From sequence record PQ671644.1: 64,000 nt of DNA, one strand, 5' to 3'. A model generated the notes under the pieces. That model worked only from the letters and a program-made list of their open reading frames with translations, did no database searches and was not told where the DNA came from. Both the position numbers and the translations under genes were made by a program. This DNA is from Escherichia phage DCP80. How positions within the stretch are numbered: position 1 is the first letter of the stretch; each line of letters begins with the position of its first letter. Positions 1,260-26,251 of the stretch are shown here, in pieces.

Positions 1260-1267
1260 TATAAATA
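1260..1267 (+). promoter_or_regulatory. T4-type late promoter TATAAATA
   Basis: gTTATAAATAaat lies 20 nt upstream of the ATG at 1287, followed by SD aagagg. Confidence 0.7.
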
Positions 1268-1286
1268 AATAAAAAGAGGAAACACA

Positions 1287-1469
1287 ATGGATATCAAAAA
1301 ACTTTCTGAAGTTGCATTAGGTAAATGGAATCACCCAGCACCGCGGGTGTCAAAGTACGAAACGGATTTGCTGATAAATTCTGTGATGGATTATCTGTCG
1401 TACAGAGGTATCAAGCATGAAGAAATTCATGTTCAACGTTTGAAGAAATTCTTTGAAGGTAAAAAATGA
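1287..1469 (+). CDS. Hypothetical late protein (60 aa)
   Basis: ORF with an SD, directly downstream of the late promoter. First gene of the packaging and head operon. Confidence 0.5.
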   Translation: MDIKKLSEVALGKWNHPAPRVSKYETDLLINSVMDYLSYRGIKHEEIHVQRLKKFFEGKK

Positions 1470-1744
1470 AATTTTATATCTACGATTACAAAAACCAATT
1501 AAGAACCAACCAGATTGTTCGTACTGGTGATTTGAACCATCAGAACCCTAACGTTTATTCAATCAAGATATACGGTACGAAAACACAACTTGAACAAAAT
1601 CCGGACCAGCTAATCAAAGCTGCTCTGCGTCGTATCAGCGAACAATTCGTAGATACAACTTACATCATTCCTGAGGTTGAAATCCAGATAACTGGTGGAT
1701 TGAAATCTTATGCTGAAATTTTTGTGAGGACTTATGAACATTGA
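1466..1744 (+). CDS. Hypothetical late protein (92 aa)
   Basis: ATGA start/stop overlap with the upstream ORF. Its end overlaps the terminase start. Confidence 0.5.
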   Translation: MKFYIYDYKNQLRTNQIVRTGDLNHQNPNVYSIKIYGTKTQLEQNPDQLIKAALRRISEQFVDTTYIIPEVEIQITGGLKSYAEIFVRTYEH

Positions 1745-3716
1745 AGAAAATTTGAGTGTTGAATTCCCTGAAGAAGTTGAACAAGAACAATTCAACCCTG
1801 TAGTTGAACGTATGAAAATTAAAAACATAATCCAGAGAGTATCAAAGTATATCAAAGCTCCTGAAGTGTGTAAGCCATCAGAATGGGTTGAGCGTAATTT
1901 GTATTTCCCTGATGGTCCGATGGCTAACCAACCGATGAAGCTTGATAACTTCCAGAAGGGAATGATTGATTCCATCAACGAAGGCAAGGTTAAAATTATT
2001 TTCATGACCTCCGCACAGATAGGAAAGACAACTGTTCTTAATGGTATGTTGTTCTGGAAATCTGCAATCGAAGGTGGAAACGTTGGTATCGCACAGGCAA
2101 CAGGCAAGGAAGTGTCTAACTGGTTGAACAGTAAGATAAGACCAATGATTGAAGTCTCCCCTGTTATGAAAGACCTGGTTGCGTCAAAAGCTGACCGTGA
2201 TAAATCAAACAACGAATCACGTATCGACCTTATGAACGGTGGTACATGGTTCATGATGTCATTAGGTTCCCCTACGCACCTGCGTGGTAAGACATTACCA
2301 ATGATTCTGATGGACGAAGTTGAAGGCGCAGAAGAATCTGAAGAAGGTTCTCCTATTAACCTGGCTGCCAAACGTGCAACGACTTTCCAGGACGAAGCGA
2401 GATTGATTATTTGCTCAACGCCAAATACGAAGTACGGTCCTATCAATAAAGAATTCGAAGCTTCTGATAAACGATACTTCATGGTTGATTGCCCCCATTG
2501 TGGTCATAATCACAGGATTACGTTTAAAGAGTGTATTAAATTCAATATGATACGTGAACAAGGTAAAGAGATTCCTGATGTTGATTCAGCTGTTCAAATC
2601 TGTCCTTCATGTGAACAGACCATAACAGATATCCAACGTACACGTATGATTCATAACGGTAAATGGGTAGCAACTAATCCAAACTCAAGCTCCATTGGAT
2701 TCCATATCTCTGCTCTTTATTCTCCGCGAAACTCCGTAAAAGGAATCGTGGAAGAGTATAAACAAGCGAGAGCATCGTTTGATGTTAAAAGTTTTTACAA
2801 CACAGTTCTGGGTGAACCATGGTCTGACGGAAACGAAAACATTGAGCTGCATGTTATTGATTCATTAAGAGAACCTATTGGATTGGAAAACATACCTGAT
2901 GATGTGTTGTTCTTAACAGCGGGCGTTGACCAACAGAAAGACCGTTTAGAAATTACAATCTTCGGTCACACAAAACATAAGCTGTACGTATTATCACACA
3001 AATCCATCCACGGACAGAACCTTGAATTGCATAACGACCCGGCATACAAAGGACTATATAATTACATAAGATTACCGTTCACAACTTGTACAGGTCGTAA
3101 GTTGACATTAGCACGAGTTAACATGGACTCCGGTAACGGTCGAGCAACGAAGGTAATTTATTCTTTTGCGCAGAAATGGAACAATATAAAGCCTATCAAA
3201 GGTGCATCAAAAGTTGAAGCTCCGTTTATTCCACCAAAATCTTCAACATCAGGTGGTTATGAATTATGGATGATTGGTGTTAACGAAGGCAAAAACAAAG
3301 TTCGTGAAATTCTTGCATCAAACATAAATGAGGCTGATACTCCTGAACTGGAATTGTCATTGTCTGATGATTTACCTGATGATTATGCTGAACAGTTGTT
3401 ATCAGAAGAAGTTGTCAAATCTGGTACAGCCAGACGCTGGGTAATCAGAAAAGGTGGTGGCCGAAATGAGTGCCTTGATACGTTTGTTTACGGATTAGCT
3501 GCTAGATTTCAAGTACTTAATACAAGTAATTGGGGATTCTGGGAAAAACTGAAAGACAAGAATGAAAAAACTGAGCAAATATCTCAAGAAGAAATTGATG
3601 AATCGGTAGAAACAGGTGTTGTTAACTATGTTGATATTAAACCTGAGAAACCAAAAGTTCAAAGACCACAACGTCCGCAAAGACCAAGGCCAACAACACA
3701 AAGAAGGAGATTCTAA
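1734..3716 (+). CDS. Terminase large subunit, lambda GpA family
   Basis: Matches remembered lambda gpA blocks: MTSAQIGKTT (Walker A region), GSPINLAAKR..STP, CPHCGHNH...CPSCEQ, GFHISALYSP, FYNTVLGEPW, LTAGVDQQKDRLE, IKPIKGAS and RNECLDTFVYGLAA. Confidence 0.93.
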   Translation: MNIEENLSVEFPEEVEQEQFNPVVERMKIKNIIQRVSKYIKAPEVCKPSEWVERNLYFPDGPMANQPMKLDNFQKGMIDSINEGKVKIIFMTSAQIGKTTVLNGMLFWKSAIEGGNVGIAQATGKEVSNWLNSKIRPMIEVSPVMKDLVASKADRDKSNNESRIDLMNGGTWFMMSLGSPTHLRGKTLPMILMDEVEGAEESEEGSPINLAAKRATTFQDEARLIICSTPNTKYGPINKEFEASDKRYFMVDCPHCGHNHRITFKECIKFNMIREQGKEIPDVDSAVQICPSCEQTITDIQRTRMIHNGKWVATNPNSSSIGFHISALYSPRNSVKGIVEEYKQARASFDVKSFYNTVLGEPWSDGNENIELHVIDSLREPIGLENIPDDVLFLTAGVDQQKDRLEITIFGHTKHKLYVLSHKSIHGQNLELHNDPAYKGLYNYIRLPFTTCTGRKLTLARVNMDSGNGRATKVIYSFAQKWNNIKPIKGASKVEAPFIPPKSSTSGGYELWMIGVNEGKNKVREILASNINEADTPELELSLSDDLPDDYAEQLLSEEVVKSGTARRWVIRKGGGRNECLDTFVYGLAARFQVLNTSNWGFWEKLKDKNEKTEQISQEEIDESVETGVVNYVDIKPEKPKVQRPQRPQRPRPTTQRRRF

Positions 3717-4201
3717 TGGCTGAAATTACAAATCCCGATGTTACCTTATACATCGGTTCTGAACTAACTGTTACTATCAAGGGCTCCCATGGGGCCTTTG
3801 GACGTAATGACGGTGAAACATATGGTTTAGAAAACGGTATAAATAAAATCAATACAGACAATCTGACACCAGGTGTTTACACGTTAGTTGATTATGCTGA
3901 TACAATTGAATTCACACGTTATGCTGTGAAATCTCCGTTCGGTAAACAATCTCAACTTGAACAAATTAAAGAAATGATTCGCGCAATCAGAGCTTGTTTG
4001 TTAGCACGTGTGAACGGTGATGATGCATATCTTCAAAGCATGGCTTCAGATGGTTATACATTTGCTTATGCTTCTGTCATGGAGCTTGAAGAATTGTTAT
4101 CTGCAAACGAACGCAGATTAGCAAGAGCCAAACAAGCAGATGACATTAAGAAAGGTAAATCACCTATGAGAACAATTAAAGCGAGGTTCCGTCATGCTTA
4201 A
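3716..4201 (+). CDS. Head-tail joining protein with a gpW-like C-terminal domain
   Basis: Sits between terminase and portal, as lambda W does. The C-terminal roughly 80 aa resemble the gpW pattern (QLEQIKEMIRAIRACLL..., ...VMELEELL). The N-terminal roughly 75 aa are extra. Confidence 0.45.
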   Translation: MAEITNPDVTLYIGSELTVTIKGSHGAFGRNDGETYGLENGINKINTDNLTPGVYTLVDYADTIEFTRYAVKSPFGKQSQLEQIKEMIRAIRACLLARVNGDDAYLQSMASDGYTFAYASVMELEELLSANERRLARAKQADDIKKGKSPMRTIKARFRHA

Positions 4202-5735
4202 TCCATTTAAAGTCTTCAAAAGAAATGGTATAAATAAAGCTATTAAAAAGAAACAACGTGATGAACAAAAATTACGAATCATCAACGATTCACCACGAAG
4301 TCAAATTCGTGCTCTGGCTGTACAGTCTTCACGTTTAACAGAAACATTTGAACAAGATATGATTCGCGGTTCTATTAACCCTGCGATTCGTCTTGGAAAT
4401 CAGGCTTTAATGGACCAGGCCCAAACAATGGCTGTACAATCTGTTTACGGTAAAAAAGCTGTTCAATACAGTATCGACCAGGTTGTTGGTGCAGAGGGAA
4501 TTCTGCCTATGCCGATTGTTATGAAAAATAAAGAACTTGATGAAGCACTGAACGATGAAATCAGTTATGAATTTGATAAGTGGGCACGTAAAGCTTCTAA
4601 ATTTTCAACCAACGGACAAATGAACTTCCGTCAATTCCAACAGCAAATGGAAGCATCAAGATTTATTTTTGGTGAAGCTTTTGCGATTATCGAAGAAGAT
4701 GATTATGGAATTCGTGTTGAGGTAATTTCTCCGCAACGTTGTCGAATGAATTATTCCGAAAAGACCAAAGAAGGTAACTATATCATCGATTCAATCGAGT
4801 ATACCCCTAGTGGTCGCCCTGTAGCTTATTATTTTGAAATTCTTGACGTAATGGCAAACGATTCCATCACTGGTAATAAATTCCGTGTTGATGCTGATGA
4901 TTGTTTCCACTATTTCAAACCAAACGTTCCAGGACAACGACGTGGGATTTCTGAATTCGCACCTGTTATTAAAGAGTTGAACCAGTTGGATGAATTTACG
5001 TTTTCTACAATCGTTCAAAAACGTATGGCTTCTAACAGCATGGGATTCATTACAACAGATGCAAACGGTCACGATTCAATTGATATTGAAATGGACGATG
5101 AAGCTGATGATGTTTATCAAGAGCCGGATATTATCCAAGAATTTGAAGCTGGTACGATGCACCAGTTAGCCGCTGGTCAAGACATTAAACAAATTACAGC
5201 AACACAAGGAGCTGATGATTATGTCGCGTTTAACTCCGCTATGGAATCAAAAATCGCAATGGGTTTTGGATTCTTTAAACAGGGTTTTCTTGGTGATACC
5301 AGTTCAATTAACTATTCCTCTGCTCGATTTGGTGATGCACAGCAACGTAATATGATTAAATCAACACAATCAACTTTGCGTGAATCTGTTCTGGAACCAT
5401 TATATGAGCGTTGGCTTGAGTGGATGTATATGCAAGGGAAATTGGTCAAATCAGACCGAATGGTTGAGTTTATTGCAGTTAATACAGATTGGATTTATCC
5501 TAAATCTGAGAGCATCGACCCAATGAAAGACCTTGATATCGAGATTAAAGCCGTTGAAGCTGGTATGCGCACCCGTCGTGATGCAATTACAAGACTTGGT
5601 GGTGACGATGTTGATGCAACTTTTGCTGGTATCGAAGCTGAACAAGGTTTACGCGTTCCGAAGAATGAACAACAGTTGGCTGCAGTATCTGCTCCTGCAG
5701 AAATCGCCGCCGGGGTCTCCGAAGAAGGTGTATAA
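4194..5735 (+). CDS. Portal protein, lambda gpB family
   Basis: 513 aa, immediately after the GpA and W-like genes. Blocks QRRGISEFAPVIKELNQLD and INYSSARFGDAQQRN...WLEW resemble lambda gpB. Confidence 0.85.
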   Translation: MLNPFKVFKRNGINKAIKKKQRDEQKLRIINDSPRSQIRALAVQSSRLTETFEQDMIRGSINPAIRLGNQALMDQAQTMAVQSVYGKKAVQYSIDQVVGAEGILPMPIVMKNKELDEALNDEISYEFDKWARKASKFSTNGQMNFRQFQQQMEASRFIFGEAFAIIEEDDYGIRVEVISPQRCRMNYSEKTKEGNYIIDSIEYTPSGRPVAYYFEILDVMANDSITGNKFRVDADDCFHYFKPNVPGQRRGISEFAPVIKELNQLDEFTFSTIVQKRMASNSMGFITTDANGHDSIDIEMDDEADDVYQEPDIIQEFEAGTMHQLAAGQDIKQITATQGADDYVAFNSAMESKIAMGFGFFKQGFLGDTSSINYSSARFGDAQQRNMIKSTQSTLRESVLEPLYERWLEWMYMQGKLVKSDRMVEFIAVNTDWIYPKSESIDPMKDLDIEIKAVEAGMRTRRDAITRLGGDDVDATFAGIEAEQGLRVPKNEQQLAAVSAPAEIAAGVSEEGV

Positions 5736-5738
5736 ATA
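5731..5738 (+). promoter_or_regulatory. T4-type late promoter TATAAATA
   Basis: Overlaps the portal stop codon, 50 nt upstream of the ATG at 5789. A hairpin at 5749-5768 follows. Confidence 0.6.
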
Positions 5739-5788
5739 AAGGTATAACGGGACTTCTAACGAGGTCCCAAAAAATAAGGACAAAAACA

Positions 5789-7789
5789 ATGTCGCAAACA
5801 ATCAGATTAAAACGTGAAATTTCTGTAGAGAAAATTCAGGCTGATGAAGACGGGATTTATGAAATTGCATTTTCTTCTGAAACCCCTGTTGAACGTCAGA
5901 TTGATACTCGTCACGGTCCACAAATTGTGAATGAAATTCTCATGCACACAGGTCCGGAAAACGCAGATTTAGAGCGTATAAATAATAATGCAAGCTTGCT
6001 GTTTAACCACAATTTCGACAACCATTTAGGTGTTGTTGTTCCTGGTTCAGTACGTATTGACAATGATAAAGTTGGCCGCGCTAAAGTAAAATTTTCAAGC
6101 GTTGGACAATTAGCACAAGAGATTAAAGCCAAGGTCGATGAAGGCACAATCTCAAAAATTTCGTTTGGATACGACATTAACGAGTATGATGTTGTTGGTG
6201 ATGACATGCTTGTTTCTCGTTGGGCACCATATGAAATTTCTTTCGTCACTGTCCCGGCAGATGATAAGGTTGGCCTCGGCCGCAGTATAAATAATATTGT
6301 AATTAACACAAATAAGGAAAAACGAATGAAACGTTACGAAGATTTTGAAATTGAAGACATCGTTGAACTGTCACGTGAAGAACTCGCTGATATGACAATC
6401 GCTGAAATCGAAGCCCTGGCTGAAGATGTACGTGCTAAGCGTGAAGAATTGCTTGACGAAGTTGAAGACGCTGAGAAAGAAGAAAAAGTTACCGATGAAG
6501 AAGATGCTGACTACGACAAAGCTGAAGGCAAAGATGCAGAAGCTAAAGTTGAAGATAAAAAAGCCGAAGGCATCGAAGACGAACTCACTGCTGAAGAGCG
6601 TGAAGAAGAAATCATCGAAATTGAAGAAATCGCTGAACGATACAAAATCGGTCGCGGAGAAGTTCGCAAAGCCATCGCAAGTGGCATGACTGCTCGTCAG
6701 TTCAAACGTTCTATTAAACCATCTAAAAACAAAAAGGAAATTCGTACTATGACTACCTCTATCGCTAAAGATACCCAGAAAAACCTCGAAGCTCGTTTTG
6801 ACCTGGCTGAAGTAACCCGTTCACTTGCTGCTGGTAAAGACATTAAAGGCGCTGCTGCTGAGTACTCTCAGGAAATGACTCGTAAACGTCAGAACGCAGG
6901 TCGTGACATTAACGGTCGTGCATATATCCCGGTAAGTGCTCTGCAAGGTCAGCGCGCAGTAAACACCGTTCCTACCGTTGCAAATATCGAACAGCACTAC
7001 GTTGATTACAACAGCTTTGTTGAATTGCTGCTCAAACCAACTGTAATTGGTAAACTGGGTGTTAACTTCCAGACCGGTCTGACCACTCCTTACGATGTAC
7101 CGAAACAAACTTCCAGCTCTGTTGATGCGTTTGGTTTCGTTGCTGAAAACGGTGACTCTCCTGAAGGCGAAAGCGGATTTGACATCATCAAATTCATGCC
7201 GCACACCTTTACTGGTGGTAACCCGATTTCTCGTCAGGCTCTTAACACCATGCCTAACCTGGCAAGCTTCATCTCTAACCACATCGTAGAACAATCTCGT
7301 TCTAAGATTCAAGGTCTGATGTTTGGTTCTGCTACTGACCCGGTTGCTTCTGGTGCTAACGCTCCGCAGAGCATCATCGCTCAGTTGGTTGCTAAGCAGA
7401 TTGGTATGACCTACAAAGAATTCGTTACCCTGGCTGCTGAAGCTGAAGGTAAAGGCGTTGCAATGGACCGCTTCAAGTATCTGATTGCTTCTGCACTTGG
7501 TGGTGAACTGAAATCCACTCTGCGTGATGCTGCTGTTGCTGGTTACATCATCGATGATGAAAACCGTATCGGTGGTCATGATGTAGTTACCTCTGGTCTG
7601 GTTAAACCTGGTCAGATTCTGTCTGGTGACTTCTCTGCAATCACTGTTGCTGAATGGGAAGGTCTGGCACTGGATATGGACGACACGACCTATCGTAACA
7701 AAGGCGCTATCGTTCCGCGTGTTTGGTGTGATATCGATTGGAAAGTTACTGCTGACGACCGTCTGTTCTTGTTCGAAAAGACAGCATAA
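5789..7789 (+). CDS. Single ORF fusing an HK97-type prohead protease, an acidic scaffold (delta-like) region and an HK97-fold major capsid protein
   Basis: The N-terminus has U35/S78 protease motifs (LLFNHNFDNHLG, ISFGY, YEISFVTVPAD). Residues about 180-320 are an E/D/K-rich coiled coil. The C-terminal roughly 345 aa are capsid-like with strong codon bias. Confidence 0.8.
   Translation: MSQTIRLKREISVEKIQADEDGIYEIAFSSETPVERQIDTRHGPQIVNEILMHTGPENADLERINNNASLLFNHNFDNHLGVVVPGSVRIDNDKVGRAKVKFSSVGQLAQEIKAKVDEGTISKISFGYDINEYDVVGDDMLVSRWAPYEISFVTVPADDKVGLGRSINNIVINTNKEKRMKRYEDFEIEDIVELSREELADMTIAEIEALAEDVRAKREELLDEVEDAEKEEKVTDEEDADYDKAEGKDAEAKVEDKKAEGIEDELTAEEREEEIIEIEEIAERYKIGRGEVRKAIASGMTARQFKRSIKPSKNKKEIRTMTTSIAKDTQKNLEARFDLAEVTRSLAAGKDIKGAAAEYSQEMTRKRQNAGRDINGRAYIPVSALQGQRAVNTVPTVANIEQHYVDYNSFVELLLKPTVIGKLGVNFQTGLTTPYDVPKQTSSSVDAFGFVAENGDSPEGESGFDIIKFMPHTFTGGNPISRQALNTMPNLASFISNHIVEQSRSKIQGLMFGSATDPVASGANAPQSIIAQLVAKQIGMTYKEFVTLAAEAEGKGVAMDRFKYLIASALGGELKSTLRDAAVAGYIIDDENRIGGHDVVTSGLVKPGQILSGDFSAITVAEWEGLALDMDDTTYRNKGAIVPRVWCDIDWKVTADDRLFLFEKTA
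6286..6293 (+). promoter_or_regulatory. Internal late promoter cassette inside the protease-capsid ORF
   Basis: tataaataatattgtaattaacacaaataaggaaa is nearly identical to the intergenic cassette at 13165 (tataaataatattgtaaattaaccccaaataaaaggaaa). It is followed by an SD and an in-frame ATG at 6326. Confidence 0.6.
6326..7789 (+). CDS. Nested in-frame product: scaffold(delta)-major capsid protein (487 aa)
   Basis: M180 of the long ORF is preceded by aaggaaaaacga and by the internal TATAAATA. This is analogous to the lambda C/Nu3 nested arrangement and to HK97 gp5 with its delta domain. Confidence 0.55.
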   Translation: MKRYEDFEIEDIVELSREELADMTIAEIEALAEDVRAKREELLDEVEDAEKEEKVTDEEDADYDKAEGKDAEAKVEDKKAEGIEDELTAEEREEEIIEIEEIAERYKIGRGEVRKAIASGMTARQFKRSIKPSKNKKEIRTMTTSIAKDTQKNLEARFDLAEVTRSLAAGKDIKGAAAEYSQEMTRKRQNAGRDINGRAYIPVSALQGQRAVNTVPTVANIEQHYVDYNSFVELLLKPTVIGKLGVNFQTGLTTPYDVPKQTSSSVDAFGFVAENGDSPEGESGFDIIKFMPHTFTGGNPISRQALNTMPNLASFISNHIVEQSRSKIQGLMFGSATDPVASGANAPQSIIAQLVAKQIGMTYKEFVTLAAEAEGKGVAMDRFKYLIASALGGELKSTLRDAAVAGYIIDDENRIGGHDVVTSGLVKPGQILSGDFSAITVAEWEGLALDMDDTTYRNKGAIVPRVWCDIDWKVTADDRLFLFEKTA

Positions 7790-7796
7790 ACCTAAT

Positions 7797-7814
7797 GGAG
7801 AGAGCAATCTCTCC
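7797..7814 (+). terminator. Hairpin after the capsid gene (7-bp stem, GCAA loop)
   Basis: ggagaga-gcaa-tctctcc, 8 nt after the stop codon. Confidence 0.4.
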
Positions 7815-7904
7815 TATGAGTTTGGGCGCAGAAGCTCTTGATGCCGCTCCGGTTAAAAAAAGCAAGAGCGCGTCGGGTTAAATCTACTGACTAACAAACT
7901 ATAA

Positions 7905-7928
7905 GGGAGCCTTCGGGTTCCCTTTTTT
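7905..7928 (+). terminator. C(UUCG)G hairpin plus T-run terminator
   Basis: gggagccttcgggttccc followed by tttttt. Confidence 0.7.
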
Positions 7929-7930
7929 GT

Positions 7931-7938
7931 TATAAATA
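7931..7938 (+). promoter_or_regulatory. T4-type late promoter TATAAATA
   Basis: gTTATAAATAagg lies 17 nt upstream of the ATG at 7955, with SD aaggag. Confidence 0.7.
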
Positions 7939-7954
7939 AGGTAAAGGAGAAATT

Positions 7955-8350
7955 ATGGAAATAAAAGATTCATCTACAACCAAATTTGTCCAGGAAGCAG
8001 TATTGATTTCTAATAAATCATATGGTCAACGTCGTTTTAACAGTTTCACTCAGAAAGAACAATCATTGTTCACCAAAAAGATGGGGCTTAAAACACGTGT
8101 TAGAGATAACTTTGCACCTGAAACGATTGAAGAAATAAACGCAATCTGGCGTGAACAACGAGAAGACACCGACCTTTCTGTTGGTAGTATGATTTATATC
8201 TTGATAGACGAAGATGATTTCTTTTTCTGGCGCGAGTATGAATCACCTGAAGGAAAATGGTATAAAGCTGGTAATACCACCAAATCTTATAACGGTATGC
8301 TCCGTGTAGAATTATCAATAGGGGAAGCAGATGGCAAGTTCAATTATTAA
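7955..8350 (+). CDS. Hypothetical virion-module protein (131 aa)
   Basis: ORF with an SD and a late promoter, in the head-tail connector position. Confidence 0.5.
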   Translation: MEIKDSSTTKFVQEAVLISNKSYGQRRFNSFTQKEQSLFTKKMGLKTRVRDNFAPETIEEINAIWREQREDTDLSVGSMIYILIDEDDFFFWREYESPEGKWYKAGNTTKSYNGMLRVELSIGEADGKFNY

Positions 8351-8753: not shown

Positions 8754-8759
8754 GGAGCT

Positions 8760-10859: not shown

Positions 10860-10867
10860 AATTAATC

Positions 10868-16891: not shown

Positions 16892-16904
16892 CATAAGGAA
16901 CAAT

Positions 16905-18124: not shown

Positions 18125-18186
18125 GAGACCATATGGATACTGAACAAACTGCTTTAAAATTTAGTAAAATGCAATAGCCTAACCAG

Positions 18187-18208
18187 GGGACCTTCGGGTC
18201 CCTTTTTT
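18187..18208 (+). terminator. C(UUCG)G hairpin plus T-run terminator
   Basis: gggaccttcgggtccc followed by tttttt. Confidence 0.75.
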
Positions 18209-18211
18209 CGT

Positions 18212-18219
18212 TATAAATA
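18212..18219 (+). promoter_or_regulatory. T4-type late promoter TATAAATA
   Basis: gTTATAAATAaag lies 42 nt upstream of the ATG at 18261. Confidence 0.65.
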
Positions 18220-18260
18220 AAGTAACAAAAGTTTAGAAATTAAAATAATTCTTAGGGGGA

Positions 18261-18677: not shown

Positions 18678-18678
18678 A

Positions 18679-21600: not shown

Positions 21601-22437
21601 CAGACAGCTGGTGGAACAACGATTATTCCGTTTGCAGTACAAAACGGTCAGGTGTTTATGAACAGCGCATTGATTGCTAACGCATCAATCGGTTCAGCTC
21701 AAATCGCCAACGCAGCTATTAACAATGCTAAGATTTCTGATGCGGCTATCAACACAGCCAAAATCCAGGATGGAGCCATCACTAATGCTAAAATTGTTAA
21801 CGGTGCGATTGATAACGCTAAGATTGGTCAGTATATAAGAAGCAACGACTTTGTATCAGGTTCTCGTGGATGGAACATAGATAAAAGTGGTTATGCTGAA
21901 TTCAACAACGTAACAGTTCGTGGTAACATCTACGCGAATAATGGATTATTCAGAGGACGTATCGAAGCTACTGACGGTTATTTTAGTGGTACTGTTTACG
22001 CTAACAAAATCGAAGGTGATATCGTTACACCTGAGCGTGGTACAGTTGGATTGGACTTCCGTTGGGAAGGTGACCTCAGTGGTACAAGAAGAGTAATGCA
22101 ATTCGCCGGTGCTGATTATAAACGATTCCTGGATTCAAACTTAGTGTTAAGGATTTATGCTACATGGGAAAACAACGAATTCCGTGTTTATAGTTGTTCT
22201 TCAGCTGGTCATAGAACCGAATTGTTCTACTATCGTAACCCAGGACCATATGCAGGTGTTAAGGATTTCAGACTACAAGGTGTACCATTAGAACAGGCTG
22301 GTAGAGCTGGGTCTAACTGGATTGAAGTAACAAATACGGCGAATAGAAACGCTAGATACGGTTGGTTTACAACTGATGGAACAAGTACATCTTATGTTTG
22401 CGCATATCGTGCAGGTTCACAACGTTTAGTTATATAG
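18679..22437 (+). CDS. Tail tip / host specificity protein (lambda J-like, 1252 aa)
   Basis: Start moved to the ATG after SD aaggtgg (M15 of the track ORF). Hydrophobic Ala/Gly-rich N-terminus, FN3-like middle region and a C-terminal A.I..A.I repeat ([37 protein letters not shown]). Confidence 0.75.
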
Positions 22438-22442
22438 TAAAA

Positions 22443-22458
22443 GGGGACTTCGGTCCCC
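22443..22458 (+). terminator. C(UUCG)G hairpin
   Basis: ggggacttcggtcccc, 6 nt after the stop codon. Confidence 0.55.
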
Positions 22459-22471
22459 TTAAGGATAGGAA

Positions 22472-22933
22472 ATGGAAGTAATGAGTTTGGCTGCATTTGT
22501 AAAATTAGTTGGTTGGTTAGTAGGAGCAATTGCTTTTGTTGTCGGTTCAATCTGGAGCGTAGGTAAAGGCATAGGTGCTATCAAGGGAAAGTTTATTGAT
22601 AACCCAATCAAGGAAGTTAAAGACGAAGTTAAAGCTTTACAGGATAATCTTTCTGAAGTTGAAAAGAAGATTGAATCTGTGGATATCAAACAGCAAGCTC
22701 TGATTGATTCTATCAAGACCAATAGTGATATGACAATGTTGCATATCGAAAAGATTTCAACACAGATGGATGGTATGAAGGAGTTAGTATTATCAAAGAA
22801 TGATGAAGTAAACCGCAGGCTGGCCGAGACTGAAAAACGTCAACAAGACCAGATTAATGAATTTCTGAAAGCTGCACTGGCTAAGGGAATTTCCAACAAC
22901 GTAAACTTTTCCGGAGACCAACGTGTACGATGA
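22472..22933 (+). CDS. N-terminally membrane-anchored coiled-coil protein (weak holin-like topology candidate)
   Basis: One N-terminal TM segment (LAAFVKLVGWLVGAIAFVVGSIW) followed by a soluble coiled-coil domain. The topology recalls T4 holin T. No sequence motif was recognised. Confidence 0.4.
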   Translation: MEVMSLAAFVKLVGWLVGAIAFVVGSIWSVGKGIGAIKGKFIDNPIKEVKDEVKALQDNLSEVEKKIESVDIKQQALIDSIKTNSDMTMLHIEKISTQMDGMKELVLSKNDEVNRRLAETEKRQQDQINEFLKAALAKGISNNVNFSGDQRVR

Positions 22934-22958
22934 GTTCGATGGATTCTAAGAGGTTATT

Positions 22959-23426
22959 ATGAAAGCAATAGAGTACAAACATATGTTATACGAAAGACAA
23001 CATGGAATTTGTCTGCTATGTAAACTTCCGCTTGAAGATGTTAAAAGTTCCCATCTAGACCACGACCACGCTTTAACAGGTCCTAATGCTGGATTCTGCC
23101 GAGGACTTCTATGTCCTAGTTGTAACGTCTTGGAAGGAACTTTGCTGCATAAATTCAACAGAAGTGGATTAAAAAGTAAAACAACCTTTACAGCTTATCT
23201 TAATAACCTGCTATCTTATTATGCAAATCCACTGCATGAAAAGATACACCCTAATTTTATTAGAGATAAGGTGAAGGCTGTTTCACGGATGAGCAATCAA
23301 AGTATCATAGCTGAAATTGAAAAACTGACCTTTAACCTCCCAGCTGATAAGTCAAAGAAAGGACTTGTCAGTTTCTATCGTAAGGCTCTTAAGAAGTCCC
23401 TGGAGGACGTATGTCTGCAAAGTTAA
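22959..23426 (+). CDS. 49: Recombination endonuclease VII (T4 gp49 homologue)
   Basis: Matches the remembered T4 gp49 sequence: C..C....HLDHDH.LTGPNAG.CRGLLC..CN..EG, HKFNRSGLK and IHPNF. Confidence 0.88.
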   Translation: MKAIEYKHMLYERQHGICLLCKLPLEDVKSSHLDHDHALTGPNAGFCRGLLCPSCNVLEGTLLHKFNRSGLKSKTTFTAYLNNLLSYYANPLHEKIHPNFIRDKVKAVSRMSNQSIIAEIEKLTFNLPADKSKKGLVSFYRKALKKSLEDVCLQS

Positions 23427-23584
23427 AGGTTAATAAAGATTTACTAAAAAAAGTGCTCATGGCGGCCCTGATAAGCTCCTTGGTATGGAATCATATAGTA
23501 TCACCTATAATTCTAATAACCACAGGTGTAAGTATCACGATTCCGATGCATGAAGTACTTCAACCGTTAATGCTATTACTATAA
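23411..23584 (+). CDS. Small membrane protein (57 aa)
   Basis: Strong SD ggagg 5 nt upstream of the ATG. Hydrophobic core VLMAALISSLVW...SPIILITTGVSITIP. Below the ORF-track size cutoff. Confidence 0.35.
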   Translation: MSAKLKVNKDLLKKVLMAALISSLVWNHIVSPIILITTGVSITIPMHEVLQPLMLLL

Positions 23585-23592
23585 GGAATGAT

Positions 23593-24144
23593 ATGAGAGA
23601 CCCTAATAAAGGTAAAGCTCGGAAGGTCAAGGAAGACCTTCAAAAGTGGGCGATTAAGGAAGATGACGTTTTCAGTAAGAAATTAACAAAGGCTTCCAAG
23701 CTGGCATCAGTTCAGTTACAGAGATATATCAACGGTAACATCAAAGGAGGTGCAACACCTTTTACACAGAAAGCAGTGGGATTCCAATTTAGATATGATA
23801 AGTTTGGTTCCTGGAACAGAATCTATATAAGAGATGCACAAGCGGCTTATCTTGGTGACCTGATTGATGATGACAAACGCTTTAAGAAGTTTGTACCAAT
23901 CGCTGGCAGGAACACAAACAAGTTCGGTAACATAATTGGTTTAAGGAATTTCAGAAACCTTATTCCCGTTAAACAGATGCATAACGGACGAATGAGAACA
24001 ATTCTCATCAAGCCATCAGCTAAAGGTATAAAAAGATTCGTTGCTGTACAGAAGGAAATTTCCCCACGGAAAACATTAGGTTCATGGAAAGAAATGGAAA
24101 AGAGAATGATAAATAACATTAACAGAGTCATTCACTCCAAATAA
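23593..24144 (+). CDS. Hypothetical basic protein (183 aa)
   Basis: ORF only. Confidence 0.5.
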   Translation: MRDPNKGKARKVKEDLQKWAIKEDDVFSKKLTKASKLASVQLQRYINGNIKGGATPFTQKAVGFQFRYDKFGSWNRIYIRDAQAAYLGDLIDDDKRFKKFVPIAGRNTNKFGNIIGLRNFRNLIPVKQMHNGRMRTILIKPSAKGIKRFVAVQKEISPRKTLGSWKEMEKRMINNINRVIHSK

Positions 24145-24157
24145 ACTAAGGATTAAC

Positions 24158-24457
24158 ATGTACAAGTACAGATATTATAACGAAGAATCATTACTAACGT
24201 TAAAGATAAACGGTGTGAATCCACCAGGTTGTTCATTACCAGAACCAGCTAAAAGTTTAAAGAAATTCCAGAAGGTAAATGATAACGATTACTTTGCTGT
24301 GTCAACTTTGTTCAAGACACCAAAGGTTTCTTATAAGAAAGGGGAAGTTGTTAAACTAGAAGGATTCCCGTTAAGGAGAGAGGCTGTGTGTATCGGTGAT
24401 TTGTTACACACAGAGAAGGGGTACAGAATTAAAAGTTATATCTTCCAATTCTGTTAA
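24158..24457 (+). CDS. Hypothetical protein (99 aa)
   Basis: ORF with SD aagga. Confidence 0.45.
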   Translation: MYKYRYYNEESLLTLKINGVNPPGCSLPEPAKSLKKFQKVNDNDYFAVSTLFKTPKVSYKKGEVVKLEGFPLRREAVCIGDLLHTEKGYRIKSYIFQFC

Positions 24458-24464
24458 TTTTAGT

Positions 24465-24776
24465 TTAGTTGAGTTTTTTACAATTAGTTATCAATAAACC
24501 GTTGACATAGAATTCACGTTCCCCACCACGAATCCATGTACCATACATGATTCCATCTCGTTCACGTTTCAGAGCAGGGATTTTCTTCCCGTCGATTTCA
24601 ACAGAACTAGAGCGCAAAGGTGGTGAACGGAATTCCTCTGAACTGAAAGATTCGATAACTGTAACGAACTCCACTTTAATCTCAGGACTGTAACACTGGA
24701 ACTTTTGTACTTCCATTGCATAACTTGATGCAGAGATAAGAAGCAATGATGCGATGATTGTTTTTAAAGTTTTCAT
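24465..24776 (-). CDS. Secreted/periplasmic protein (103 aa)
   Basis: Signal peptide MKTLKTIIASLLLISASSYA followed by a cleavage-like site. Confidence 0.5.
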   Translation of the reverse strand: MKTLKTIIASLLLISASSYAMEVQKFQCYSPEIKVEFVTVIESFSSEEFRSPPLRSSSVEIDGKKIPALKRERDGIMYGTWIRGGEREFYVNGLLITNCKKLN

Positions 24777-24868
24777 ATAGTCTCCAAAGTAATAATCTTA
24801 TTTAGTGTTTCAATAGTATAAGATAAGTATAACACATAAATTCTAAAGCGTAAACCTAAGGAGGTTTT

Positions 24869-25333
24869 ATGTCAGAAGCTTTTAACATGCTGATGAAAGA
24901 TGAAGGCATCGAGTATCATCTTTATAAATGCACGCAAGGATACTGGACAATCGGGATTGGTCATATGATTTCCCGTGATAAACAAACAGCTGAACGATTC
25001 CTTAATGAGAAATTTGGGAAGTGTGTAATAAGTAAGGAGCAGGCTATCCAGTTGTTCAAGCAAGATTATAATCATGCAGTATTAGGTGCACAGAGTATCG
25101 TAAGATTAGACACCTACCGTGAATTAGCATTGTCTAATATGGTTTTCCAGATGGGACTTGGTGGTGTACTGAAGTTCAAGAAAATGATAGCTGCACTGAA
25201 GATACAAGACTGGAACGAAGCTTATAAGCAGGCTTTAGATTCTACATGGTATAAACAAACACCTAATCGTGCCAAACGTGTGGCCGAGGTACTAAGAGAT
25301 GGGAAACAAGCATATGTCAAACATTACTCCTGA
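24869..25333 (+). CDS. e: Lysozyme (T4 gp e family endolysin)
   Basis: Aligns with T4 lysozyme: DEG....Y.....GY.TIGIGH, NMVFQMG and WY.QTPNRAKRV. Confidence 0.92.
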   Translation: MSEAFNMLMKDEGIEYHLYKCTQGYWTIGIGHMISRDKQTAERFLNEKFGKCVISKEQAIQLFKQDYNHAVLGAQSIVRLDTYRELALSNMVFQMGLGGVLKFKKMIAALKIQDWNEAYKQALDSTWYKQTPNRAKRVAEVLRDGKQAYVKHYS

Positions 25334-25526
25334 AATGATTGCTGAACTATACGTTGAGAATCATAACTTAAAGCGTCAATTCAAAGCTGCTAACGATTTC
25401 GTCGGGCAGGTAGCCATGGCTCTCCAGATGGATTCTGAAGACTCTATCGTAACTTATGAAGCATTGTCTAACAAGTTAGCTTCCGCGCTCGCCGGGGCCT
25501 CCCAGGGCGTCCAGGAAAAGCAATAG
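25299..25526 (+). CDS. Hypothetical protein (start uncertain: 25299 or 25314)
   Basis: ORF overlapping the lysozyme 3' end. No TM segment. Confidence 0.35.
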   Translation: MGNKHMSNITPEMIAELYVENHNLKRQFKAANDFVGQVAMALQMDSEDSIVTYEALSNKLASALAGASQGVQEKQ

Positions 25527-25533
25527 TTACTTT

Positions 25534-25569
25534 CCGGGGGCCCCCTCCCCGGGATGTTACGCCCACCCA
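25534..25569. other. GC-rich symmetric island, candidate cosN-like site or terminator
   Basis: ccgggggccccctccccggg contains the g5c5 palindrome and a ccgggg/ccccgg inverted repeat. It is the only strongly GC-rich stretch here and lies about 200 bp upstream of the Nu1-like gene, followed by an A-tract-rich region. Confidence 0.35.
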
Positions 25570-25693
25570 TTCTTCTGTTTACCAGAAATTTTTTTGGGAT
25601 AGCTAACACAACTTTATAATTATAAAATATTTTTTAAAATTAAAAATAGTTTTGAAAATAAATTTTGATTTTAAAATTAATTTTACAATTCAT

Positions 25694-25707
25694 GAACTTA
25701 TAAGTTC
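25694..25707. promoter_or_regulatory. Perfect 14-bp palindrome gaacttataagttc upstream of the small terminase gene
   Basis: Lies 53 nt upstream of the ATG at 25760, inside a phased A/T-tract region (25575-25755). Confidence 0.35.
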
Positions 25708-25759
25708 TTAATTTCTAAAAGATTTTCAAGAGCTTTTCCAAAACTGATGAGGAATTAAA

Positions 25760-26251
25760 ATGTCAACCAAAGACCCGATTTATCTTAACCAAAAACAAAT
25801 CTCCGAATCCTACGGAGTTACGCGCCAGACGATTGCAGAGTGGCAGAAGCGTGAAAATCCAATTCCGTGGATTGCTGGACGGGGATATCCGATGCCTGAT
25901 GCCGGAGTTTGGATTGCAGAAAATTTTATAAAAACTTTAAGACAGAACAACGAAGCACAGGATTTTAATTATCACAAGACAAGGAAGATGGCAGCAGAAG
26001 CGGACATTGCTGAAAGGGAAAACATGCTCGAGGCGCAATCCGTTATCAGAACAGATTTCGTAGAAGAGGAGTTAAGGAATTTTGTTACAAGAGTTAAGGA
26101 AACCCTCCGCGTCATTCCATTGAAGTATGCAGAAGATATTGCTATAAGAGCAACAAGCACATCAGAAGTTAAGAAGGCATTAAGGGAAGCGATTGATAAA
26201 TCCCTGAACGAGATTGACCTGTTGATGTTGTTTGAAGAGCATGAAGAATAA
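25760..26251 (+). CDS. Terminase small subunit, lambda Nu1-like
   Basis: The N-terminal wHTH LNQKQISESYGVTRQTIAEWQKRENPI resembles lambda Nu1 VNKKQLADIFGASIRTIQNWQEQGMPV. YHKTRKMAAEADIAERENM resembles YERHRLTRAQADAQELKNA. Confidence 0.7.
   Translation: MSTKDPIYLNQKQISESYGVTRQTIAEWQKRENPIPWIAGRGYPMPDAGVWIAENFIKTLRQNNEAQDFNYHKTRKMAAEADIAERENMLEAQSVIRTDFVEEELRNFVTRVKETLRVIPLKYAEDIAIRATSTSEVKKALREAIDKSLNEIDLLMLFEEHEE

What the first reader, a model, noticed from the sequence alone, without database searches (positions are those of the whole stretch)
1260..26251. Lambda-type siphovirus virion module run by T4-type regulatory signals, scaffolded next to a T4-type replisome set
Seen in the sequence: the virion genes are unmistakably lambda/HK97-like. 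They include a GpA terminase, a gpW-like protein, a gpB-type portal and an HK97-type protease-capsid ORF. The tail order is V, G/GT, H, M, L, K, J, with no sheath or baseplate. The operons are nevertheless preceded by TATAAATA octamers at 1260, 5731, 6286, 7931, 13165, 13736 and 18212 on the plus strand. On the minus strand they occur at 26948, 27407, 28076, 29209 and 30290. Each lies 17-75 nt upstream of a start codon in the correct orientation. The transcripts end in C(UUCG)G hairpins, and the block encodes clear T4 gp49 and T4 lysozyme homologues. The other blocks carry T4-type motA, rII, 39/52, 47/46, 45/44/62, uvsX and 41 genes and share the GTTTACA/TGTACA early promoter families. Established knowledge: TATAAATA is the gp55/gp33/gp45-dependent T4 late promoter, and CUUCGG hairpins were first described in T4 mRNAs. 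T4-type phages as I know them are myoviruses. Inference: this is either a hybrid lineage with a swapped virion module or a separate element that depends on a T4-like transcription apparatus.
Basis: partly seen in the sequence, partly recalled or inferred. Interest (0 to 1): 0.8.

Follow-up and report, generated by a model that had tools for sequence, protein, structure and literature searches.

The report
Candidate satellite virus of T4-like phages
The first 30.6 kb of the window is a complete, separate small phage genome that builds its own head and tail. All its genes sit behind T4-type promoters and it has no detectable replication or transcription genes, so it most likely can grow only in cells also infected by a T4-like phage.

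Summary
Block 1 holds 16 TATAAATA octamers. All are in gene sense, and 10 lie in the 11% of sequence that is intergenic. It also has nine UUCG-loop terminators, a T4 gp49-type endonuclease VII and an e-type lysozyme.

"Scaffolded next to" is an artefact. The window is six contigs joined by N runs. Block 1 closes on itself through a 111-nt end overlap. Six independent assemblies span that junction, and none links it to T4 or host DNA. Blocks 2-6 are ordinary Gaprivervirus (VR7-like) contigs, so the hybrid-genome reading is rejected.

Block 1 also carries two T4-early-like promoters and two tandem MotA-box middle promoters in a 1.1-kb non-coding, origin-like region. I found no polymerase, primase, helicase, initiator, integrase, sigma factor, gp55 or gp33.

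Its relatives are roughly 35-kb islands with a serine recombinase in Enterobacteriaceae. They keep promoters at the same positions but with CTAAATA, which is the sense-enriched motif in the late-gene region of phage Vi01 (Ackermannviridae). Other clades use AATAAATA or GATAAATA.

Best reading (about 0.6): a virophage-like satellite virus that makes its own virion and borrows the helper's transcription and replisome. No such element turned up in the literature I searched. There is no experimental evidence.

The parts
1..30710 (.). Complete element (block 1). The unique circular unit is 30,599 bp and 30600-30710 repeats 1-111.
   Evidence: 100% identical 111-nt end overlap. The junction is spanned by L008 and L101-L105 from other datasets. 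No megablast hit among 50,697 phage records. The large terminase is at most about 30% identical to any deposited phage.
112..1259 (-). Non-coding, repeat-rich region and candidate replication origin. It holds a 150-bp tandem repeat (717-867 and 866-1013), two GCGAAGC mini-hairpins and a duplicated 34-nt palindrome (82-115 and 202-235).
   Evidence: No credible gene: only a few ORFs of 41-56 aa and no tRNA or Rfam hit. Repeats. GCGAAGC clusters sit in the equivalent non-coding region of all relatives. The origin function is inferred.
951..977 (-). MotA-box middle-type promoter, ATTGCTTCA-N12-TATAAT.
   Evidence: Strict pattern found 2 times against 0.007 expected. Conserved in L008 and E31. Resembles the T4 oriF/uvsY middle promoter.
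803..829 (-). Second MotA-box middle-type promoter, TTTGCTTTA-N12-TATAAT, in the tandem copy.
30638..30667 (-). T4-early-like sigma-70 promoter, GTTTACA-N17-TATCAT (same sequence as 39-68). It drives orf105.
   Evidence: The stretch 27-81 is 85% identical to an intergenic sequence in the tk-rI early region of Gaprivervirus phages VR7 and CJ20. The roughly 350-nt promoter plus orf105 cassette is absent from L008.
24826..24855 (-). T4-early-like promoter upstream of orf103.
   Evidence: A similar early-like promoter precedes the equivalent minus-strand ORF in L008 and E31.
1260..1267 (+). Late promoter TATAAATA, 19 nt before ATG 1287. It heads the orf60-orf92-terminase operon.
5731..5738 (+). 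Late promoter, 50 nt before the protease-capsid gene.
   Evidence: The homologous position in relatives carries CTAAATA.
6286..6293 (+). Late promoter inside the protease-capsid ORF, followed by an RBS and the in-frame ATG 6326. This implies a nested scaffold-capsid product.
   Evidence: Conserved as TATAAATA, AATAAATA or CTAAATA in all relatives examined.
7931..7938 (+). Late promoter just after the terminator at 7903-7924.
   Evidence: The stretch 7903-7950 is 89.8% identical to an intergenic cassette of Cronobacter phage S13, a member of Straboviridae.
13165..13172 (+). Late promoter before the tail tube gene.
13736..13743 (+). Late promoter before the tail chaperone gene (ATG 13777).
18212..18219 (+). 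Late promoter before the DUF6950 and tail tip genes.
26948..30297 (-). Five minus-strand late promoters, at 26948, 27407, 28076, 29209 and 30290. Four share the leader GTATAAATAAAnGTATGAAAnCGACGAG.
1734..3716 (+). Large terminase, GpA type.
   Evidence: Pfam GpA_ATPase 8e-52 and GpA_nuclease 4e-50.
4194..5735 (+). Portal, lambda family.
   Evidence: Pfam 9e-59.
5789..7789 (+). Fusion of prohead protease (S78), scaffold and HK97-type major capsid protein.
   Evidence: Pfam. More than 2,000 homologues.
8760..13136 (+). Two fibre proteins of 699 and 745 aa. The N-terminus of the second resembles the T4 gp37 family.
   Evidence: PHROGs 7e-7 and 1e-8. No tblastn hit in the phage collection. Relatives carry gp34, gp36, gp37 and gp38 domains at this position.
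13211..22437 (+). Non-contractile tail module: tube, two chaperone ORFs, tape measure (14463-16877), distal tail protein, hub, DUF6950 protein and J-like tip (18637-22437, start uncertain).
   Evidence: No sheath or baseplate wedge genes.
22959..23426 (+). Endonuclease VII, T4 gp49 type.
   Evidence: Pfam Endonuclease_7 6e-14 plus the T4 dimerisation domain 1e-9.
24869..25333 (+). Lysozyme, T4 e type.
   Evidence: Pfam 8e-13. 70% nt identity to the Aeh1 gene e.
25760..26251 (+). Small terminase, Nu1-like.
   Evidence: phrog_57 9e-20.
26293..29136 (-). Late minus-strand cluster: an HNH endonuclease (26564-26890), a 243-aa coiled-coil protein and eight small ORFs.
   Evidence: Apart from the HNH endonuclease, no function found.
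29240..29760 (.). Second non-coding region with repeated AAAAAGGCTGTTTTT units. Possibly the terminase recognition site.
   Evidence: Function not established.
29773..30606 (-). Early operon of orf105, orf68 and orf55, ending at the terminator 29751-29766.
   Evidence: orf105 has no homologue apart from identical copies in five other datasets.
30721..64000 (.). Context, not part of the element: five contigs of one or two Gaprivervirus (VR7-like T4-type) phages and the candidate helper. Block 2 is an inverted copy of block 3 at about 96% identity.

Best explanation
Block 1 is the complete 30.6-kb genome of a satellite virus of T4-like (Gaprivervirus/Tequatrovirus) phages.

What it encodes: everything needed to package DNA, build a siphovirus-type particle and lyse the cell. 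This comprises small and large terminase with an HNH partner, portal, protease-capsid, fibres, a non-contractile tail, endonuclease VII and lysozyme.

What it lacks: any detectable function for copying or transcribing its DNA.

Proposed cycle (all steps inferred):
1. Its own virion delivers the DNA, and host RNA polymerase reads two T4-early-like promoters.
2. A co-infecting T4-like phage supplies MotA and AsiA, which fire the two tandem middle promoters in the non-coding region.
3. As at T4 oriF/oriG, that transcript primes replication by the helper replisome.
4. The helper's gp55, gp33 and gp45 clamp then transcribe the virion genes from the TATAAATA promoters.
5. The element's own endonuclease VII resolves branched replicative DNA, and its own terminase fills its own capsids.

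Shown here: the anatomy, the motif statistics, the circular independent genome, the absence of detectable homologues, and the conservation and switching of the promoters among relatives.

Inferred: dependence on a helper, the origin function, and every step of the cycle.
For: 1. Independent replicon.
- 111-nt end overlap.
- L008 is a 30,478-bp contig broken at a different place, and L101-L105 come from five further datasets. All read across the junction, and none is joined to T4 or host DNA.

2. T4-type late signals.
- 16 sense-oriented TATAAATA, a density of 0.52 per kb. T4's own late region has 0.36 per kb.
- The distances to start codons and the in-gene copies resemble those in T4.

3. Two strict MotA-box promoters against 0.007 expected. 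They are conserved in relatives that share only 65-73% DNA identity. The co-assembled phage encodes MotA.

4. Regulatory DNA shared with T4-like phages.
- A 55-nt early promoter matches Gaprivervirus, the genus of the co-assembled contigs.
- A 48-nt terminator plus late-promoter cassette matches a Straboviridae phage.

5. No polymerase, primase, helicase, initiator, integrase, repressor, RNA polymerase or sigma factor.
- Every listed ORF of 47 aa or more was scanned with PHROGs, Pfam or both.
- T4 gp55, gp33, DsbA, gp59 and gp32 gave nothing below E = 0.1 by tblastn or phmmer.
- The only products not behind a late promoter are at most 105 aa.

6. Promoter positions are conserved across the family while the motif differs by lineage: TATAAATA, AATAAATA, GATAAATA or CTAAATA.
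- In the 50-kb late-gene region of Vi01 that I sampled, CTAAATA occurs 10 times in sense and 2 in antisense, and TATAAATA is nearly absent.
- In T4's late region, CTAAATA is not enriched.

7. No regulator is shared between block 1 and its integrated relatives. The one conserved unknown protein, of 183 aa, is predicted mixed alpha/beta and scores 0.07% probability against gp55 by hhalign.

8. Other T4-type accessory genes occur in the family: gp49, e, gp34/36/37/38-type fibre domains, homing endonucleases and a UvsW-type helicase.
Against: - There are no experimental data, read depths or read pairs. Co-occurrence with a T4-like phage is shown for this one assembly only, and three look-ups for shared samples were uninformative.
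- About 14 small ORFs and one 243-aa ORF have no assigned function, so a novel initiator or polymerase-retargeting factor cannot be excluded.
- The middle promoters carry an extended -10 (TGnTATAAT) and could work with host sigma-70 alone.
- The TAAATA core is used by the whole family, including islands in bacterial isolates. That is also what a family-encoded factor too diverged to detect would produce.
- The element needs co-infection by two separately adsorbing particles, and no mechanism that ensures this was found.
- Cytosine DNA is normally degraded and not transcribed late in T4 infection.
Confidence: 0.62

Rival explanations
1. An autonomous small siphophage, virulent or plasmid-like, that happens to be in the same sample as T4-like phages. 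One of its uncharacterised small proteins would direct host polymerase to TAAATA-type promoters, and host enzymes or an unrecognised initiator would replicate it.
For: - About 15 ORFs have no function assigned.
- The TAAATA core is family-wide, including integrated members in isolate genomes.
- The middle promoters have an extended -10 that host sigma-70 can use.
- Co-occurrence with T4 is documented only once.
Against: - No factor is conserved between block 1 and its integrated relatives apart from virion, packaging, endonuclease VII and lysis proteins and two conserved unknown proteins of 183 and 99 aa.
- The candidate early products are at most 105 aa, and one of them is dispensable because L008 lacks it.
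- TATAAATA lacks the -7 T that sigma-70 needs (established knowledge).
- MotA-box geometry occurs twice against 0.007 expected.
- Regulatory DNA is shared with T4-like phages.
- Two of the lineage motifs equal the consensus of known helper-type families.
- From my knowledge, no tailed phage lacking every replication gene has been described.
Confidence: 0.22
2. An anti-phage island of the PLE type. Its main role would be to sense T4-like infection through the helper's late promoters and spoil it, with transmission secondary.
For: - Integrated relatives carry TIR and AAA_15/AAA_21 cargo genes and sit in bacterial chromosomes.
- Helper-specific promoters would make an infection-triggered switch.
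Against: - Block 1 has no integrase and no recognisable defence gene.
- It is recovered as a free circular genome in seven other datasets.
- Most of its coding capacity is virion genes.
- This is a variant of the best explanation rather than a true alternative.
Confidence: 0.08
3. A hybrid T4-type phage whose myovirus virion genes were replaced by a lambda-type module. All six blocks would then belong to one genome.
For: The blocks share one record, have similar G+C (about 40%) and use the same promoter types.
Against: - Block 1 closes on itself, and other assemblies read across the junction.
- The joins are N runs between contigs that fall in decreasing length order.
- Blocks 2 and 3 are two copies of the same T4 region at 96% identity, so the record mixes strains.
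- The T4 blocks are 93-96% identical to complete 170-kb myophage genomes.
- An HK97-type capsid made for about 30 kb could not hold such a genome (inference).
Confidence: 0.02
4. A chance motif or assembly artefact, with TATAAATA reflecting only A+T-rich intergenic sequence.
For: Intergenic DNA is A+T-rich, and the octamer resembles a -10 box.
Against: - None of 100 shuffles reached the observed count.
- All 16 copies are in sense.
- Positions are conserved in relatives 30-60% diverged in protein, including a site inside a coding sequence.
- Near-identical sequence was assembled independently in seven other datasets.
Confidence: 0.01

Closest known systems
Virophages of giant viruses (Sputnik type)
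   Same: A small virus with its own capsid genes and no transcription machinery. Its genes carry the helper's late promoter motif, and it multiplies only in cells infected by the helper. This comparison rests on my knowledge and was not tested here.
   Different: Eukaryotic hosts, a double-jelly-roll capsid and no sequence relationship. Here the particle is a tailed HK97-fold virion, and the helper signals are the T4 early, middle and late sets.
Capsid-forming PICIs (cf-PICIs)
   Same: Satellites that encode their own terminase, portal, protease and HK97-type capsid (summarised in PMC12772148).
   Different: As I recall them, cf-PICIs are roughly 10-15 kb integrated islands. They have an integrase and their own replication module, steal helper tails and exploit temperate phages. 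Block 1 has tail and fibre genes, no integrase, no replication module and T4-type promoters.
PLE of Vibrio cholerae, with lytic helper ICP1
   Same: A satellite of a virulent phage that relies on the helper's replication machinery (PMC7145576 abstract; PMC12772148).
   Different: PLE is an integrated island of about 18 kb that remodels and steals ICP1 capsids and tails. Block 1 makes its own virion and is found free.
Streptomyces satellites MiniFlayer and MulchMansion
   Same: Satellites of virulent or non-lysogenic helpers that encode encapsidation genes, with loss of integration in one lineage (PMC10690885 abstract).
   Different: A different host, no reported use of helper-specific promoters, and they depend on the helper for replication in another way.
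T4 late, middle and early transcription units and the oriF/oriG origins
   Same: - TATAAATA with no -35 element.
- TGCTTnA box 12 nt upstream of TATAAT.
- GTTTAC-type early promoters.
- UUCG-loop terminators.
- A middle promoter followed by non-coding A+T-rich DNA, as at oriF.
   Different: These signals sit on a 30.6-kb genome that shares no structural or replication genes with T4.
Lambda, HK97 and RcGTA/phiJL001-type virion modules
   Same: GpA and Nu1 terminase, lambda-family portal, HK97 capsid with S78 protease, tail tube, tape measure and J-like tip.
   Different: No lambda M, L or K proteins. The hub and DUF6950 protein are of the RcGTA/phiJL001 type. The small terminase lies 6 kb from the large one. 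At most about 30% identity to any deposited phage terminase.

Membership tests
T4-type late (gp55/gp33/gp45-dependent) transcription units | TATAAATA at -10 with no -35 element, in sense, shortly upstream of late genes | tested here: met
   16 of 16 in sense, 10 intergenic, 16-72 nt before starts. The pattern matches the T4 control region.
T4-type late (gp55/gp33/gp45-dependent) transcription units | Transcription requires gp55, gp33 and a loaded gp45 clamp | not testable with these tools
   This needs in vitro transcription or infection with gene 55, 33 or 45 mutants.
T4-type middle (MotA/AsiA-dependent) promoters | (a/t)(a/t)TGCTT(t/c)A box centred near -30, 11-13 nt from a TAnnnT -10 | tested here: met
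   Two sites, at 951-977 and 803-829, against 0.007 expected. They are like the T4 oriF promoter. MotA dependence itself was not tested.
Phage satellite or satellite virus | Lacks functions essential for its own multiplication | tested here: met
   No replication or transcription gene found by Pfam, PHROGs, tblastn or phmmer. This is absence of detectable homologues, not proof of absence.
Phage satellite or satellite virus | Multiplies only with a specific helper | not testable with these tools
   The only support is co-assembly with Gaprivervirus contigs in this record.
Phage satellite or satellite virus | Replicon separate from the helper | tested here: met
   Circular map confirmed by six other contigs.
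cf-PICI | Integrase, own replication module (primase or replicase), and a capsid module without tail genes | tested here: not met
   No integrase or replication gene, and a full tail and fibre module is present.
Tevenvirinae / T4-like phage genome | T4 core genes (gp43, gp41, gp23, gp18, gp20 and others) on the same molecule | tested here: not met
   None in block 1. The T4 genes lie on other contigs.
Lambda/HK97-type siphovirus virion module | GpA and Nu1 terminase, lambda-family portal, HK97-fold capsid with protease | tested here: met
Lambda/HK97-type siphovirus virion module | Lambda tail tip proteins M, L and K, and the G/GT frameshift | tested here: inconclusive
   No M, L or K families were found; the hub and DUF6950 protein are of another type. 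Two chaperone ORFs are present, but no canonical slippery site was seen at 14100-14133.
Integrated relatives: temperate prophage | Integrase plus repressor and replication modules | tested here: inconclusive
   A large serine recombinase is present. Candidate regulators are a PGAP-annotated GntR-family protein that had no PHROG hit and Rha/pRha proteins in L015-L017. No replication module was found in L007 or L017; the only relevant hit is a UvsW-type helicase.

The most novel reading that the evidence does not exclude
Block 1 and its relatives would be the first bacterial counterpart of virophages. They form a widespread family in Enterobacteriaceae, present in at least 70 of 5,426 complete E. 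coli genomes, plus free forms of about 30 kb. These satellite viruses make complete tailed virions but hand over transcription and replication to virulent T4-superfamily helpers. Different lineages would have retuned the first two bases of a gp55-type late promoter to match different helper families: Straboviridae with TATAAATA, Ackermannviridae with CTAAATA, and unknown helpers with AATAAATA or GATAAATA.
Probability: 0.5. Interest if true: 0.92.

Novelty: new variant of a known kind. Interest (0 to 1): 0.85.

Why it matters
Known phage satellites, such as P4, PICIs, cf-PICIs and PLE, typically keep their own integration and regulation genes and steal virion parts from the helper. Here the dependence would be reversed. 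The element is structurally self-sufficient and relies on the helper for gene expression and DNA synthesis.

If that is right, several things follow:
- T4, the best-studied virulent phage, would have a natural parasite that could be used to probe late transcription and origin firing.
- A set of "prophages" in clinical Enterobacteriaceae would be reclassified as helper-dependent satellites.
- Comparing the lineages would show how a promoter motif tracks the sigma factor of a changing helper.
- T4-like and Vi01-like phages are used therapeutically, and such parasites could lower their yield or move host genes.

Tried and rejected
- Megablast and blastn of block 1 against 50,697 phage records found only 48-55-nt regulatory matches plus a 126-150-nt match (70-72% identity) in the e-type lysozyme gene.
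- An exact look-up of the terminase found nothing on record.
- The terminase as a single query against IMG/VR found no relative.
- tRNA and Rfam scans of block 1 found nothing.
- The generic sigma-70 and terminator scans were not enriched overall. Only the specific T4-type patterns are enriched.
- I asked whether the conserved 183-aa protein is a hidden gp55-type sigma factor.
  - It had no PDB sequence match, Pfam family or PHROG.
  - The AlphaFold model had pLDDT 64 and mixed alpha/beta structure.
  - Foldseek returned nothing below E = 0.09.
  - hhalign against gp55 gave 0.07% probability.
  - The idea was rejected.
- I looked for gp45-binding C-terminal tails (LDFL) on block-1 proteins and found none.
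- The 745-aa fibre has no tblastn hit in the phage collection, so there is no evidence of recent receptor-domain exchange with a helper.
- Intergenic cassettes of the integrated relatives were searched against phages. The only result was a weak terminator match to Winklervirus-type Straboviridae at E = 3e-3.
- Sample co-occurrence was tried through exact T4 protein look-ups. rIIB is not on record, and the gp45 look-up showed only 10 places out of 98 index blocks, with no sample overlap among those shown.
- Six of the seven literature searches looked for a T4 satellite, a satellite that uses helper late promoters, or DUF6950. They found nothing relevant.
- The seventh, a search for "CTAAATA", returned only primer listings.
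- The IMG/VR clade L018-L020 (AATAAATA) first looked like a free form. Its gene order near one contig end resembles the integrated relatives, so its status is unresolved.

Full report
**1. What the window is**

The 64-kb window holds five N runs that split it into six blocks: 1-30710, 30721-40993, 41041-49790, 49801-56742, 56761-62886 and 62941-64000. The five complete blocks fall in decreasing length order, as in an assembler's contig list, and the sixth is cut by the window end.

- Block 2 is an inverted copy of part of block 3 at about 96% identity, so at least two strains of one phage are mixed.
- Blocks 3-5 are 93-96% identical in DNA to E. coli T4-type myophages.
- PHROGs confirm MotA, gp52, rIIA, rIIB, gp39, gp47, gp46, gp45, UvsX and gp41.
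- The gp45 protein is 100% identical to that of phage VR7 and other Gaprivervirus genomes of about 170 kb.

The joins therefore carry no evidence of physical linkage.

**2. Block 1 is a separate, complete genome**

- Its first and last 111 nt are identical, which gives a circular unit of 30,599 bp.
- An ENA contig of 30,478 bp (L008, 92-96% identical) is broken at a different place, just before the terminase gene. It reads through the block-1 junction, apart from a roughly 350-nt indel.
- Five Logan contigs from five other runs align at about 99% across the junction. All of them stop inside the tandem repeat of the non-coding region.
- None of these contigs continues into T4 or bacterial DNA.
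- Block 1 has no megablast match among 50,697 phage records. Its terminase is at most about 30% identical to any deposited phage.

**3. Gene content**

Pfam and PHROGs identify the following:
- GpA large terminase, a connector and a lambda-family portal.
- An S78 protease fused to an HK97-type capsid protein.
- Two fibre proteins.
- Tail tube and two chaperone ORFs. The 804-aa ORF at 14463-16877 is taken as the tape measure from its size, position and homology to the relatives' 799-aa ORF.
- A distal tail protein, an RcGTA/phiJL001-type hub, a DUF6950 protein and a J-like tip.
- Endonuclease VII with the T4-specific dimerisation domain.
- An e-type lysozyme, a Nu1-like small terminase and an HNH endonuclease.

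The remaining ORFs number about 15, and all but one (243 aa) are at most 183 aa. They match nothing.

I found no polymerase, primase, helicase, initiator, integrase, repressor, RNA polymerase or sigma factor. T4 gp55, gp33, DsbA, gp59 and gp32 give nothing below E = 0.1 by tblastn or phmmer. That holds for block 1, its 31.6-kb relative and an integrated relative.

**4. Regulatory signals**

Late promoters:
- Block 1 has 16 TATAAATA copies, all in the sense of the local genes. Ten lie in the 11% of sequence that is intergenic, 16-72 nt before a start codon.
- The density is 0.52 per kb. T4's own 50-kb late region has 0.36 per kb, and it also has in-gene copies.
- One site, at 6286, lies inside the protease-capsid ORF. 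It is followed by an RBS and the in-frame ATG 6326, which implies a nested scaffold-capsid product.

Terminators:
- Nine perfect UUCG-loop hairpins, against 1.1 expected, close the genes.
- Three of them abut a late promoter.

- Two sigma-70 promoters of the T4 early style (GTTTAC... TATCAT or TATACT) drive minus-strand genes.
- One of these is 85% identical over 55 nt to an intergenic sequence in the tk-rI early region of Gaprivervirus phages.
- Two tandem promoters with exact MotA-box geometry (WWTGCTTNA-N12-TATAAT) sit in the 1.1-kb non-coding region. The expectation is 0.007.
- These promoters resemble the T4 oriF/uvsY promoter. They are conserved in relatives that are only 65-73% identical in DNA.
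- The same region carries GCGAAGC mini-hairpins and short repeats. These recur in the equivalent region of every relative examined.

**5. Relatives**

The capsid protein has more than 2,000 homologues.

| Group | Examples | Form | Late motif |
|---|---|---|---|
| Block-1 lineage (92-99% DNA identity) | L006, L008, L009, L101-L105 | seven other datasets; contigs of 1.7-30.5 kb, none joined to T4 or host DNA | TATAAATA |
| E31 (65-73% DNA identity) | L010 + L011, 31.6 kb | same layout, no integrase in the 29.9 kb held | TATAAATA, with some GATAAATA and AATAAATA |
| Integrated, 59-63% capsid identity | L003, L007 | chromosomal islands | CTAAATA |
| Integrated, about 40% capsid identity | L015-L017 | chromosomal islands | CTAAATA |
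| Other IMG/VR clades | L018-L020; L062, L073 and others | status unresolved | AATAAATA; GATAAATA |

The integrated relatives are islands of roughly 35 kb in E. coli, Enterobacter, Klebsiella, Kluyvera, Citrobacter and Serratia.
- They have 39-42% G+C in hosts of 51-55%.
- They carry a large serine recombinase and sit in ycdX or between ybiT and ldtB.
- They occur in 7 + 63 of 5,426 complete E. coli genomes.

Block 1 shares all virion and packaging genes, endonuclease VII, lysozyme and two small unknown proteins with these islands. It shares no regulator.

The integrated islands have almost no TATAAATA in the virion module. They carry CTAAATA 9-12 times in sense against about once in antisense.

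At homologous positions the free lineage has TATAAATA where the integrated lineage has CTAAATA. These positions are:
- before the capsid gene,
- at the nested site inside it,
- before the next head gene,
- before the tail tube gene,
- before the DUF6950 gene.

Across 80 IMG/VR loci the TAAATA core is strongly sense-biased, and the two preceding bases are lineage-specific.

As a control, the late-gene region of Salmonella phage Vi01 (Ackermannviridae) has CTAAATA 10 times in sense and 2 in antisense, and essentially no TATAAATA. T4 shows the reverse. That CTAAATA is the published late consensus of Vi01-like phages is my recollection. I checked it only on this one region.

The family also carries other T4-type accessory genes: gp34/36/37/38-type fibre domains, homing endonucleases and a UvsW-type helicase.

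**6. Interpretation**

The anatomy is that of a virus able to package, assemble and lyse, but unable to transcribe most of its genes or copy its DNA without T4-type factors.

- The late promoters would need the gp55 sigma factor, gp33 and the gp45 clamp.
- The middle promoters have the form used by MotA and AsiA, and their setting matches a T4 R-loop origin.
- An element-encoded endonuclease VII makes sense if the DNA is replicated in the branched T4 mode and must be resolved for a foreign terminase.

I therefore favour a satellite virus of T4-like phages, about 0.62 including the defence-island variant. It is functionally analogous to virophages.

Of this reading, only the sequence features are shown. 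Every step of the life cycle is inferred.

The main rival, at about 0.22, is an autonomous phage with an unrecognised factor of its own. Points against it:
- The only products not under late promoters are at most 105 aa, and one of them is dispensable.
- No regulator is conserved across lineages that keep the promoter positions.
- The one conserved unknown protein, of 183 aa, is not gp55-like.

Points that keep it open:
- The TAAATA core is family-wide.
- The middle promoters have an extended -10.
- There are no co-occurrence statistics.

**7. Novelty**

A December 2025 overview of satellites lists P4, PICIs, cf-PICIs, PLE and a jumbo-phage island. None of these makes a complete virion or is tied to T4. 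Six literature searches aimed at this question found no description of such an element. The held library is incomplete, so this is not proof of absence.

I rate the element a new variant of a known kind, namely satellite viruses and phage satellites. Interest is high because the direction of dependence is reversed and the helper is the T4 model system.

Noticed in passing
window 30721-40993 versus 41041-49790: Block 2 is a reverse-complement copy of the rIIA/rIIB/gp39 region of block 3 at 94-99% identity. The record therefore mixes two strains of the T4-like phage, which probably explains why that phage assembled only into contigs of 10 kb or less.
   Followed up: partly
window 6286-6330; L007 20484; L011 10480; L019 10489; L015 10505: A late promoter, RBS and in-frame ATG lie about 490-540 nt inside the protease-capsid ORF. 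This is conserved in every lineage, with the lineage's own motif embedded in coding sequence. It implies a nested scaffold-capsid product, as with lambda C/Nu3.
   Followed up: partly
window 717-1013; L003 2328-2805; L001 3379-3869; L007 12439-12894; E31 17140-17346: Clusters of the GCGAAGC mini-hairpin motif mark the long non-coding region of all family members, free and integrated alike.
   Followed up: partly
window 30289-30680 (same sequence as 1-81 for the promoter part): A roughly 350-nt cassette holds a T4-early-like promoter and the orphan gene orf105. It is present in block 1 and in five Logan datasets but absent from the 30,478-bp ENA relative. Only the promoter part has a match elsewhere, in Gaprivervirus.
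   Followed up: yes
window 82-115 and 202-235: Two copies of a 34-nt palindrome, ACATCTGGCATTGAAACAAATAAATGCCAGATGT, lie just upstream of the early promoter (as read on its own strand). Its function is unknown.
   Followed up: no
window 29240-29760: A second non-coding stretch has five or more AAAAAGGCTGTTTTT-like units in both orientations. It could be the terminase recognition (cos) region. The small and large terminase genes are unusually far apart, at 25760 and 1734.
   Followed up: partly
window 24465-24776 (-): orf103 starts with a signal-peptide-like sequence (MKTLKTIIASLLLISASSYA) and sits behind a T4-early-like promoter, on the opposite strand to its neighbours. It may be an exclusion or envelope protein.
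   Followed up: no
L017 43237-44727 (E. coli PSJ-22 island): An integrated relative encodes a helicase with the N-terminal domain of T4 UvsW (Pfam 2e-34). It sits next to CapR-domain and GIY-YIG proteins and a serine recombinase.
   Followed up: no
L007 7202-8098; L001 545-1753: Integrated relatives carry cargo that looks like anti-phage defence: a TIR-domain protein, and an AAA_15/AAA_21 ATPase next to an HNH protein.
   Followed up: no
L018-L020, L119 (IMG/VR): One clade uses GTAATAAATA as its late motif and has a single MotA-box promoter. Its gene order near one contig end resembles the integrated islands, and I could not tell whether it is integrated. I know of no helper family with that motif.
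   Followed up: partly
window 42789-42796: The only TATAAATA outside block 1 lies at the end of the T4-type gp39 gene in block 3.
   Followed up: no
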